Shown in pieces: positions 21,647-21,727 of a DNA stretch of 24,060 nt. Under the pieces are notes generated by a model, which was not told the origin of the DNA, made no database searches, and saw only the letters and a list, made by a program, of their open reading frames with translations. Source of the stretch: a virus; the IMG/VR virus record IMGVR_UViG_3300033074_001684, positions 1 through 24,060 of that record. One strand, 5' to 3'. The position numbers were made by a program, and so were the translations under genes. How positions within the stretch are numbered: the first letter of the stretch is position 1; each line of letters opens with the position of its first letter.

Positions 21647-21727
21647 TGGTAGCTCCGGTGGGGGTCGAACCCACAATTGTCGCCGGGTTTAAGCCAGCCG
21701 CATATGCCACAATTCTGCTACGGAGCC
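21647..21727 (-). tRNA. type-I tRNA with anticodon UAA (Leu-type anticodon, discriminator A) but no long variable arm; atypical
   Basis: Reverse complement GGCTCCG TA GCA..GG..TGC G GCTGG CTTAAAC CCGGC GACAATT GTGGG TTCGACC CCCAC CGGAGCT A CCA (81 nt). Confidence 0.65.

What the first reader, a model, noticed from the sequence alone, without database searches (positions are those of the whole stretch)
21647..21727. Type-I tRNAs carrying leucine anticodons (UAA and CAA)
The tRNAs at 21647-21727 and 23335-23411 fold into short-variable-arm cloverleaves with anticodon loops CTTAAAC and TTCAAAT and discriminator A. The same array contains canonical long-arm tRNA-Leu(CAA) and tRNA-Leu(UAG). Bacterial LeuRS normally charges class-II tRNAs. 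These could be Leu isoacceptors with altered identity, mischarging or decoding modifiers, or regulatory tRNA-like RNAs. The CAA one also has a mismatched closing pair, giving a possible 9-nt anticodon loop (a +1 frameshift-suppressor-like geometry).
Basis: seen in the sequence. Interest (0 to 1): 0.55.

Follow-up and report, generated by a model that had tools for sequence, protein, structure and literature searches.

The report
Short-arm leucine tRNAs in a phage
Two leucine tRNA genes in a large phage's tRNA cluster lack the long extra arm of textbook bacterial leucine tRNAs, but they belong to a widespread short-arm leucine tRNA family (native to actinobacteria, common in phages, and shown by experiment to accept leucine), so they are ordinary decoders and not recoding devices.

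Summary
T1 (21647-21727) and T2 (23335-23411), both on the minus strand, are well-formed tRNAs with 7-nt and 5-nt variable loops, anticodons UAA and CAA, discriminator A73 and an encoded CCA. They sit among class II tRNA-Leu(CAA) and tRNA-Leu(UAG).

They are not exotic. T2 is 82-86% identical to the chromosomal tRNALeu(CAA) of Actinomycetota and shares its A31·C39 mismatch, C13·A22 and CCAGU loop. It scores 81 bits on an anticodon-masked model of short tRNALeu; the best non-Leu tRNA scores 61. With the anticodon left free, the T2 scaffold carries Leu anticodons in 58 of 59 viral hits and 121 of 121 genomic hits. The T1 scaffold carries UAA or CAA in 19 of 22 hits, with the arm present in some members and absent in others.

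Short tRNA-Leu genes are already annotated in Streptomyces, Erwinia, Salmonella, Lactobacillus and Pseudomonas phages. Streptomyces coelicolor type I tRNALeu(CAA) is leucylated in vitro (Fan 2019).

Both genes keep the LeuRS identity set: A73, U8:A14, A15:U48, G18G19. The anticodon arm has no inserted nucleotide, so the frameshift-suppressor idea fails.

Verdict: new members of a known kind, low interest.

The parts
21647..21727 (-). T1: short-arm tRNALeu(UAA), 81 nt including CCA. It has a 7-nt stemless variable loop GACAAUU, an 11-nt D-loop, G1·U72, A73, U8:A14, A15:U48 and G18G19.
   Evidence: ARAGORN. Rfam tRNA 43.9 bits. The best phage matches are 75-77-nt tRNA-Leu(caa) genes of Streptomyces phages at 78.5% identity. 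Orthologues with 13-, 15-, 20- and 21-nt arms and with 6-7-nt loops share the same body.
23335..23411 (-). T2: short-arm (type I) tRNALeu(CAA), 77 nt including CCA. It has a 5-nt variable loop CCAGU, A31·C39 and C13·A22 non-canonical pairs, A1-U72, U4·G69, U6·G67 and A73.
   Evidence: ARAGORN. Rfam 43.5 bits. Short-tRNALeu model R1 81.3 bits. It is 82-86% identical to actinobacterial chromosomal tRNALeu(CAA). It is close to the short tRNA-Leu of Erwinia, Salmonella, Lactobacillus and Pseudomonas phages.
21980..22067 (-). Class II tRNALeu(CAA), 88 nt, with a long variable arm. It has the same anticodon as T2.
   Evidence: ARAGORN; Rfam 42.6 bits.
23628..23713 (-). Class II tRNALeu(UAG), 86 nt. 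Its 3' acceptor strand plus tail (CCGGGGCUACCA) is identical to that of T2.
   Evidence: ARAGORN; Rfam 52.2 bits; sequence read.
21323..21628 (-). 101-aa ORF with a KOW motif, starting 18 nt after T1. It is the second half of the duplicated tRNA+ORF unit.
   Evidence: ORF list. Weak KOW hits in Pfam. The unit aligns with the T2 unit (A2). Orthologues are in L001 and directly after the short tRNALeu(UAA) of L209.
23043..23330 (-). 95-aa paralogous KOW-motif ORF starting 4 nt after T2.

Best explanation
T1 and T2 are genuine leucine isoacceptor genes of the short-variable-loop ('type I') tRNALeu kind. They are carried in the tRNA array of a large myovirus alongside class II tRNALeu genes.

Shown: both fold as complete cloverleaves with an encoded CCA. 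Both keep the elements that bacterial LeuRS uses: A73, U8:A14, the A15:U48 Levitt pair and G18G19. T2 is a close homologue of the native tRNALeu(CAA) of Actinomycetota and of short tRNA-Leu genes in many cultured phages. T1 belongs to a second tRNALeu(UUR) sub-family in which the long arm is present in some members and absent in others on the same body.

Inferred: they are transcribed with the minus-strand array and processed. The host's LeuRS then leucylates them. LeuRS reads neither the anticodon nor the arm's helix and needs only about 5 or more nucleotides in the variable region. The charged tRNAs decode UUG (T2, C34) and UUA/UUG (T1, U34), adding capacity for the phage's most used Leu codon, UUG.

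Arm loss is tolerated for Leu but not for Ser because SerRS depends on the arm, which explains why every tRNASer in these arrays keeps it.
For: (1) Structure and scores.

(2) Scaffold versus anticodon test for T2. With the T2 D-arm, a 5-nt V loop, the T-arm and a free anticodon, 58 of 59 matches in 57 viral contigs carry Leu anticodons: CAA 42, UAG 8, UAA 4, CAG 2, GAG 1, AAG 1. The single exception (UUG, L063) also lacks A73 and has U1-A72. In cellular genomes the count is 121 of 121 (CAA 118, UAA 3), and the loci are almost all Actinomycetota chromosomes.

(3) The same test on the T1 scaffold, with free anticodon and free V length, gives UAA 10, CAA 9 and UAU 3. V lengths are 6-7 nt or 13-21 nt. 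L195 and L196 differ essentially only by the arm.

(4) An anticodon-masked alignment of 67 short tRNALeu genes (under 85% identical) has U8, A14, G18, G19 and A73 in 67/67, A15:U48 in 65/67 and C13·A22 in 61/67. Covariation is strong: 97.8% of cells paired, 19 of 20 pairs with compensatory changes, 0 of 500 shuffles as high.

(5) On covariance model R1, T2 scores 81.3 bits, inside the member range of 74-85, while the best non-Leu tRNA scores 61. By nearest-neighbour identity T2 is 82-86% identical to actinobacterial tRNALeu(CAA) and at most 77% to any other isotype.

(6) Relatives of this phage (L001/L002 and L209) carry short tRNALeu with CAG, GAG, CAA and UAA anticodons beside class II copies. 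In L209 the short UAA gene sits directly before the KOW ORF, as T1 does.

(7) Leu versus Ser contrast. In the viral contigs 98 of 108 tRNA-Leu are short while 53 of 53 tRNA-Ser are long. In four cultured phages the numbers are 9 of 10 and 7 of 7.

(8) Biochemistry (PMC6614811). S. coelicolor type I tRNALeu(CAA) is leucylated with a kcat/Km about half that of the type II tRNA. A type II tRNALeu with all five arm base pairs removed, leaving 7 nt as in T1, still accepts leucine, and 5 nt is the minimum.

(9) By elimination, using identity rules in PMC9976931. Synthetases that ignore the anticodon are AlaRS (needs G3·U70, absent here), SerRS (needs the long arm and G73, absent here) and LeuRS.

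(10) Codon use. UUG is 40.6% of 288 Leu codons in 14 confident genes, and UUA is 5.6%.
Against: There are no expression or charging data. The host is unknown, so its LeuRS cannot be examined. In Fan et al., E. coli LeuRS did not charge the S. coelicolor type I tRNALeu, so not every bacterial LeuRS accepts every short tRNALeu.

T1 is not separated from non-Leu tRNAs by model R1: it scores 59.4 bits while Lys reaches 61 and Arg 59.8. Its best masked identity to a Leu tRNA is only 79%, with a Thr tRNA at 74%. T1's D-loop (AAUUGU) and V loop (ACAAUU) are complementary, and that alternative fold is 0.7 kcal/mol better than the cloverleaf.

T2's cloverleaf is weak at -18.6 kcal/mol against an MFE of -23.3, with two G·U pairs and an A-U in the acceptor stem. 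However, the native actinobacterial tRNA also fails to give a cloverleaf as its MFE. T2 duplicates the anticodon of a class II gene 1.3 kb away, so it could be redundant.
Confidence: 0.85

Rival explanations
1. One or both genes are decaying, non-functional copies. They would be by-products of the frequent duplication and recombination in this array, not working tRNAs.
For: The array does contain a broken chimeric tRNA at 22683-22763. T1+ORF and T2+ORF are a duplicated unit with mosaic tRNA bodies. T2 repeats the anticodon of the class II gene at 21980-22067 and has a weak acceptor stem. T1 has a unique 11-nt D-loop and a 7-nt V loop that can pair with each other.
Against: Both genes keep all four stems, every invariant position of the family (U8, A14, A15:U48, G18G19, U54, C56, A58, A73) and the CCA end. 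T2's 'defects' (A31·C39, C13·A22) are conserved traits of the native actinobacterial tRNA. Short Leu genes with the same anticodons recur in the relatives L001 and L209, with compensatory stem changes.
Confidence: 0.08
2. The short arm is selected as a counter-measure. Armless tRNALeu would escape a host or competitor factor, such as a nuclease, that recognises class II tRNAs through the long arm, keeping Leu decoding alive during infection. They would still be leucine tRNAs, so this adds to the main explanation and does not replace it.
For: Short and class II tRNALeu with the same anticodon coexist in this array and in L209. Short tRNALeu occur in phages whose hosts have only class II tRNALeu, such as Erwinia, Salmonella, Lactobacillus and Pseudomonas. 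Human SLFN11 prefers type II tRNAs, as cited in PMC13462974.
Against: The prokaryotic Schlafen nucleases characterised so far are not specific for type II tRNAs. I found no bacterial arm-specific tRNase in the literature. tRNASer keeps its arm in all these arrays. Actinomycetota have the short form as a housekeeping tRNA. Neutral loss of a dispensable arm explains the data equally well.
Confidence: 0.07
3. The tRNAs have switched identity and are charged with another amino acid, recoding UUA or UUG.
For: Only the absence of the long arm, plus the existence of rare scaffold relatives with non-Leu anticodons: UUG in L063 and UAU in L197/L202/L203.
Against: All LeuRS determinants are present. G3·U70 (Ala) is absent, as are G73 and the long arm (Ser). 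Synthetases that read the anticodon would not accept UAA or CAA. The scaffolds are almost exclusively linked to Leu anticodons from both codon boxes. UUG is the phage's commonest Leu codon, so recoding it would be highly disruptive.
Confidence: 0.02
4. T2 is a +1 frameshift suppressor because of an enlarged anticodon loop.
For: The A31·C39 mismatch would formally open the loop to 9 nt.
Against: There is no extra nucleotide. The arm is the standard 5+7+5 nt. The identical A31·C39 is found in the native tRNALeu(CAA) of Actinomycetota genomes, and the S. coelicolor member of that family could not be deleted (PMC6614811). A true 8-nt loop, by contrast, was seen in a different tRNA of the related contig L007.
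Confidence: 0.01

Closest known systems
Streptomyces coelicolor type I tRNALeu(CAA) (Fan et al. 2019, NAR, PMC6614811)
   Same: It is a bacterial-type tRNALeu with a 5-nt stemless variable loop and a CAA anticodon. It coexists with class II tRNALeu and has the U8:A14 determinant. It is leucylated by a single LeuRS, and a variable region of at least 5 nt is sufficient. T1's closest phage matches are the equivalent genes of Streptomyces phages.
   Different: T1 and T2 are phage-encoded, encode CCA and come from a 46% G+C genome of unknown host. T1 carries UAA with a 7-nt loop. The S. coelicolor loop is ACAGC, whereas T2 has CCAGU and T1 has GACAAUU. Charging of T1 and T2 has not been tested.
Chromosomal tRNALeu(CAA) of Actinomycetota (Corynebacterium, Rhodococcus, Gordonia, Nocardia, Mycobacterium, Dietzia and others)
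   Same: T2 shares the D-arm CCAAUUGGCAGAG, the anticodon stem ACGGA/CCCGU with A31·C39, C13·A22, the CCAGU loop and A73. Identity is 82-86% with the anticodon and V loop masked.
   Different: T2 has a different and weaker acceptor stem (A1-U72, two G·U pairs), U38 in place of A38, an encoded CCA and a phage context.
Short tRNA-Leu genes annotated in cultured phages (Erwinia phiEa21-4 and other Ounavirinae, Lactobacillus Bacchae/LpeD, Pseudomonas vB_PseuGesM_254, Streptomyces Karimacvirus)
   Same: They are 74-78 nt with a 4-6-nt variable loop and the same D-arm and T-arm, carry several Leu anticodons, and sit in phage tRNA arrays next to long-arm tRNASer.
   Different: They come from different phage lineages and hosts. 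In the library available here, none has been discussed in print as lacking the arm.
Canonical class II bacterial tRNALeu (for example the window's own CAA and UAG genes; E. coli tRNALeu)
   Same: They share A73, U8:A14, A15:U48, G18G19, the AAUUGG-type D-loop and the Leu anticodons. T1's nearest orthologues, L005 and L007, are class II genes with a 4-bp arm.
   Different: T1 and T2 have no helical variable arm.
Animal mitochondrial type I tRNALeu(UUR)
   Same: It has a short variable loop, a UAA anticodon, and identity resting on A73 and A14 (PMC9976931).
   Different: It is evolutionarily unrelated and structurally floppy, is charged by a dedicated mitochondrial LeuRS, and is not charged by S. 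coelicolor LeuRS.

Membership tests
tRNA (Rfam RF00005) | Four-arm cloverleaf scoring above the curated gathering score (29 bits) | tested here: met
   T1 scores 43.9 bits and T2 43.5 bits, both matching the full-length model 1-71. ARAGORN calls both.
Bacterial tRNALeu (LeuRS identity set) | Discriminator A73 | tested here: met
   A73 is present in T1 and T2 and is invariant in 67/67 short tRNALeu representatives.
Bacterial tRNALeu (LeuRS identity set) | U8:A14 tertiary pair, A15:U48 Levitt pair, and G18G19 in the D-loop | tested here: met
   All are present in T1 and T2 (sequence). Family frequencies are 67/67, 65/67 and 67/67. The determinants are listed in PMC6614811 and PMC9976931.
Bacterial tRNALeu (LeuRS identity set) | Leucine anticodon (NAG or YAA); this defines decoding and is not read by LeuRS | tested here: met
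   UAA in T1 and CAA in T2.
Class II (long-arm) tRNALeu | Variable region longer than 10 nt that forms a helix | tested here: not met
   The loops are 7 nt and 5 nt with no stem. T1 and T2 are therefore not class II. The arm's helix is dispensable for leucylation in S. coelicolor.
Short-arm (type I) tRNALeu family of Actinomycetota and phages | Match to a covariance model of the family, with the anticodon masked, above all non-Leu tRNAs | tested here: met
   This result is for T2: 81.3 bits, with members at 74-85 and the best non-Leu tRNA at 61.
Short-arm (type I) tRNALeu family of Actinomycetota and phages | The same covariance-model criterion, applied to T1 | tested here: inconclusive
   T1 scores 59.4 bits, level with Lys (61) and Arg (59.8) tRNAs. 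The model is dominated by the CCAAUUGGCAGAG sub-family. T1's link to Leu rests on its own scaffold test and on its orthologues.
Short-arm (type I) tRNALeu family of Actinomycetota and phages | The scaffold is associated with Leu anticodons only | tested here: met
   The T2 scaffold gives 58/59 viral and 121/121 genomic matches. The T1 scaffold gives 19/22, the rest being one repeated UAU sequence.
Short-arm (type I) tRNALeu family of Actinomycetota and phages | Aminoacylation with leucine by the host LeuRS | not testable with these tools
   This has been shown only for the S. coelicolor member (PMC6614811). The host of this phage is unknown.
+1 frameshift-suppressor tRNA | An extra nucleotide in the anticodon loop (8-nt loop) | tested here: not met
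   T2's arm is 5+7+5 nt with no insertion relative to the tRNA model. A31·C39 is a conserved family trait.
tRNAAla / tRNASer (other anticodon-independent identities) | G3·U70 (Ala); long variable arm plus G73 (Ser) | tested here: not met
   Both T1 and T2 have C3-G70, A73 and a short loop.

The most novel reading that the evidence does not exclude
Phages keep armless tRNALeu next to class II copies with the same anticodon because the missing arm makes them invisible to a still-unknown host, or rival-phage, factor that targets class II tRNAs through the long arm. That factor might be a nuclease, a modification enzyme or a sequestering protein. The short genes would then be a counter-defence set that preserves Leu decoding when host tRNALeu is attacked.
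Probability: 0.07. Interest if true: 0.65.

Novelty: new member of a known kind. Interest (0 to 1): 0.25.

Why it matters
For this window it matters little. The two genes should simply be annotated as tRNA-Leu, and nothing points to recoding, frameshifting or a regulatory RNA.

The survey done to reach that verdict does show a pattern that I could not find described in the searchable literature. Short-arm tRNALeu genes covering all six Leu anticodon types are common in phage tRNA arrays from many host groups. Meanwhile tRNASer in the same arrays never loses its arm. The same tRNALeu body can occur with or without the arm.

That agrees with what is known of LeuRS and SerRS recognition. It also raises one testable question. 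Phages of Enterobacteria carry short tRNALeu, yet E. coli LeuRS failed to charge the S. coelicolor type I tRNA. Which features make a short tRNALeu acceptable to a LeuRS that normally sees only class II substrates?

Tried and rejected
(1) Megablast of 18000-24060 against the phage records found nothing.

(2) The two 462-735 kb huge phages I fetched, which share the MVP-like protein at 37-38% identity, have no tRNAs within 20 kb of that gene and so were useless for comparison.

(3) The look-up of encoding contigs could not recover the source contig from two window proteins. The rest of the array and any phage LeuRS therefore could not be examined.

(4) Single-sequence MFE folding does not give a cloverleaf for T2, nor fully for T1. 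The native actinobacterial tRNALeu(CAA) fails the same test, so I discarded it as a criterion.

(5) Model R1 did not discriminate T1. I replaced it with a scaffold-specific free-anticodon search.

(6) Five literature searches found no paper on armless tRNALeu in phages.

(7) The idea that prokaryotic Schlafen nucleases target long-arm tRNAs was checked against two 2026 papers and is not supported.

(8) T5 was checked as a model phage. Its only annotated tRNA-Leu is an ordinary 85-nt class II gene.

(9) Host inference was not achieved.

Full report
OBSERVATION. ARAGORN finds nine tRNA genes in the window, all on the minus strand. Class II tRNA-Leu(caa) at 21980-22067 (88 nt) and tRNA-Leu(tag) at 23628-23713 (86 nt) lie between and beside them.

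The drawn structures and Rfam alignments show complete cloverleaves with anticodon loops CUUAAAC and UUCAAAU, discriminator A73 and an encoded CCA. The variable loops are 7 nt (GACAAUU) and 5 nt (CCAGU). Both score about 44 bits on the general tRNA model, whose gathering score is 29. T1 was missed in the default run only because of the speed filters.

T2 has non-canonical pairs at 13-22 (C·A) and 31-39 (A·C). Its anticodon arm nevertheless has the normal 5+7+5 nucleotides, with no insertion.

CONTEXT. The window (45.9% G+C) encodes T4-like baseplate proteins: gp5, gp25, gp6 and a wedge subunit. It also encodes an 839-aa protein with a major-vault-protein shoulder domain. The only matches to that protein among deposited phages are 462-735 kb uncultured phages, at 37-38% identity. 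The window therefore comes from a large uncultured myovirus.

Closer relatives are one IMG/VR contig (L001/L002/L006, MVP protein 74% identical) and metagenome contigs (L207-L209, 76%). Each of T1 and T2 is followed within 4-18 nt by a paralogous ORF of about 100 aa with a KOW motif. The duplicated unit runs from the 5' end of the tRNA to the end of the ORF.

WHAT T2 IS. A blastn search against 50,697 phage records finds T2's best matches in genes annotated tRNA-Leu in Erwinia phiEa21-4 and many other Ounavirinae, in Salmonella, Lactobacillus and Pseudomonas phages. Those genes are 74-78 nt and have short variable loops.

I took the shared scaffold (D-arm CCAATTGGCAGAG, a fixed 5-nt variable loop, the T-arm) and left the anticodon free. 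It matched 59 sites in 57 viral contigs. Of these, 58 carry leucine anticodons drawn from both leucine codon boxes: CAA 42, UAG 8, UAA 4, CAG 2, GAG 1, AAG 1. The one exception (UUG, L063) also lacks A73 and has U1-A72.

Anticodons were CAA 118 and UAA 3. By their titles about 116 of the 120 loci are Actinomycetota: Corynebacterium, Rhodococcus, Gordonia, Nocardia, Mycobacterium, Dietzia, Tsukamurella and one Streptomyces.

The native actinobacterial tRNALeu(CAA) has the same anticodon stem ACGGA/CCCGU with A31·C39, the same C13·A22 and the same CCAGU loop as T2. With anticodon and variable loop masked, T2 is 82-86% identical to these genes and at most 77% identical to any tRNA of another isotype.

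I then built a covariance model from 67 independent short tRNALeu genes (under 85% identical, anticodon replaced by N). T2 scores 81.3 bits on it. Members score 74-85 bits and the best non-Leu tRNA scores 61. T2 is therefore a member of the type I tRNALeu family, and its 'mismatched closing pair' is a conserved family trait.

WHAT T1 IS. T1's best phage matches are 75-77-nt tRNA-Leu(caa) genes of Streptomyces phages at 78.5% identity. They share its D-arm (GUAGCAGAA…AUGCG), T-arm and a GUCAAU-type loop.

A structured pattern search found orthologues with the UAA anticodon. L005 and L007 have a 13-nt arm with a 4-bp stem. L001 has a 15-nt region with no stem.

With both the anticodon and the variable length left free, the T1 scaffold gives 22 hits: UAA 10, CAA 9 and UAU 3, the last being one sequence in three contigs. 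Variable regions are 6-7 nt or 13-21 nt. L195 (6 nt) and L196 (20 nt) have almost the same body. T1 thus belongs to a tRNALeu(UUR) sub-family in which the arm is present in some members and absent in others.

The caveats should be stated plainly. Model R1 gives T1 only 59.4 bits, no better than some Lys and Arg tRNAs. Plain masked identity is only weakly discriminating, at 79% to a Leu tRNA and 74% to a Thr tRNA. The model is dominated by the other sub-family.

In L209, the short tRNALeu(UAA) that sits directly before the KOW ORF (T1's position) has a T2-type D-arm and a 5-nt loop. The bodies in this array are therefore mosaic.

IDENTITY ELEMENTS AND FUNCTIONALITY. In the 67-sequence alignment U8, A14, G18, G19, A58 and A73 are invariant. 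A15:U48 occurs in 65/67 and C13·A22 in 61/67. T1 and T2 have all of these.

These are the determinants reported for bacterial LeuRS: A73, A14, A15-U48, G18G19 (PMC6614811 introduction; PMC9976931). The family shows very strong covariation: 97.8% of cells paired, 19 of 20 pairs with compensatory changes, and no shuffle out of 500 reaching the observed score. These are maintained, working cloverleaves.

An argument by elimination points the same way. Synthetases that read the anticodon would not accept UAA or CAA. Among those that do not read it, AlaRS needs G3·U70 and SerRS needs the long arm and G73. Both tRNAs have C3-G70 and A73, which leaves LeuRS.

PRECEDENT FOR THE MECHANISM. Fan et al. 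(2019) showed that S. coelicolor has one type I tRNALeu(CAA) beside four class II species and a single LeuRS that charges both. The kcat/Km for type I is a little under half that for type II. They also showed that removing all five base pairs of the class II arm, which leaves 7 nt, preserves acceptance, and that 5 nt is the minimum. They could not delete the type I gene.

T2 (5 nt) and T1 (7 nt) fall within that functional range. The same paper reports that E. coli LeuRS did not charge the Streptomyces type I tRNA. Acceptance therefore depends on the enzyme, and the host of this phage is unknown.

WHY LEU AND NOT SER. Across the viral contigs fetched, 98 of 108 tRNA-Leu genes are short, whereas 53 of 53 tRNA-Ser and 28 of 30 tRNA-Tyr keep long arms. 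In four cultured phages the figures are 9 of 10 Leu short and 7 of 7 Ser long. The contigs were selected for having one short Leu gene, so the Leu fraction is inflated. The Ser contrast is not affected by that bias.

This fits established knowledge that SerRS recognises the arm while LeuRS does not need its helix. The window's confident genes use UUG for 40.6% of Leu codons and UUA for 5.6%, which is consistent with two CAA genes and one UAA gene.

REJECTED READINGS. The frameshift-suppressor reading is rejected because the loop has no extra nucleotide and the mismatch is native to an essential tRNA family.

The mischarging or recoding reading is rejected because the full Leu identity set is present and other identity sets are absent.

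The pseudogene reading is possible but unlikely, given that all invariant positions are intact and short Leu genes recur in relatives. The weak acceptor stem of T2 and the D-loop/V-loop complementarity of T1 are noted as evidence against full confidence.

The counter-defence reading, in which armless tRNAs escape an arm-recognising nuclease, is not excluded but has no bacterial precedent. The two prokaryotic Schlafen studies report no preference for type II tRNAs.

NOVELTY AND SCORE. The genes are new members of a known kind. Type I tRNALeu is biochemically characterised in Streptomyces, is a housekeeping tRNA across Actinomycetota, and is already annotated as tRNA-Leu in many phage genomes.

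I found no paper discussing its breadth in phages. That gives the survey some value but does not make this locus remarkable. Interest is 0.25.

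Noticed in passing
window 22683-22763 (-): This is a chimeric, broken tRNA. Its 5' acceptor strand and D-arm (AGAGGAUUGACAGAGCGGCAAUGU) are identical to those of tRNA-Ser(cga) at 18505-18595. Its long arm equals that of tRNA-Ser(uga) in L209 (1177-1267). Its T-arm and 3' end (GGGGGUUCAAGUCCCUCCGGGGCUACCA) are identical to those of tRNA-Leu(uag) at 23628-23713, so the acceptor stem cannot pair. ARAGORN misses it, and Rfam gives 24 bits, below threshold. It looks like a recombination product between T-loops in the array.
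   Followed up: partly
window 15117-15491 (-): A 124-aa ORF has an RF-1 (peptidyl-tRNA hydrolase / release-factor GGQ) domain (Pfam 38.6 bits). In the alignment to solved release factors, the catalytic GGQ is replaced by GGG in the stretch GGNGGGGKDTSNSGVRL. It may be a phage ArfB- or RF-like protein with an altered catalytic motif, sitting next to the tRNA array.
   Followed up: partly
window 15726-18245 (-): An 839-aa protein has a major-vault-protein shoulder domain and a vault repeat. It is conserved at 37-38% identity in 462-735 kb uncultured huge phages and at 60-76% in metagenome relatives. It is embedded between tRNA genes.
   Followed up: no
window 19077-19865 (-): An FkbM-family methyltransferase gene lies inside the tRNA array, with a weak sub-threshold hit to the TRM5/TYW2 tRNA methyltransferase domain. 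It is a possible tRNA-modifying enzyme.
   Followed up: no
window 21323-21628 and 23043-23330 (-): Two paralogous ORFs of about 100 aa have an N-terminal KOW motif and a Cys/His-rich C-terminus (KLCPSxPHxCxGECG). Each is fused in a unit with a short tRNALeu. Orthologues are in L001 and L209. Their function is unknown.
   Followed up: partly
window 21647-21727 (-), within T1: T1's enlarged D-loop (AAUUGU) is perfectly complementary to its 7-nt variable loop (ACAAUU). This gives an alternative fold 0.7 kcal/mol below the cloverleaf. The other T1-type tRNAs whose sequences I read do not show it.
   Followed up: partly
L007 1644-1728 (+) (IMGVR_UViG_3300030047_000079): A class II, Leu-like tRNA has an 8-nt anticodon loop (CUCAAAAA). 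ARAGORN reports it as tRNA-?(Leu|Phe)(caaa). This is a true candidate for four-base decoding or +1 frameshifting, unlike T2.
   Followed up: no
L197 1323-1377 (-), L202 2265-2319 (+), L203 796-850 (+): One tRNA sequence occurs in three viral contigs. It has the T1-type tRNALeu body, A73 and an 8-nt variable loop, but the anticodon is UAU (Ile AUA), one base away from UAA. It is either a tRNAIle recruited from a tRNALeu gene or a potential AUA-to-Leu misreader.
   Followed up: no
L063 7449-7496 (-): This is the only T2-type scaffold with a non-Leu anticodon (UUG, Gln). It also has U1-A72 and U73 in place of A73. This suggests an isotype switch from Leu to Gln through a few substitutions.
   Followed up: no
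L209 703-3906 (+) (Ga0181511_1296314): This relative's array holds parallel sets of tRNALeu. The short genes are CAG, GAG, CAA and UAA (77-79 nt). The class II genes are GAG, UAG and CAA (86-87 nt). Two anticodons, GAG and CAA, are therefore present in both forms within 3 kb.
   Followed up: partly
L084 (Moorena bouillonii), L157 (Peribacteria MAG), L180 (Hydrogenophaga MAG): These are the few non-actinobacterial genome hits for the short tRNALeu scaffold. Each carries more than one short tRNALeu with different anticodons, which suggests tRNA arrays or prophage or phage contigs and not native housekeeping genes.
   Followed up: no
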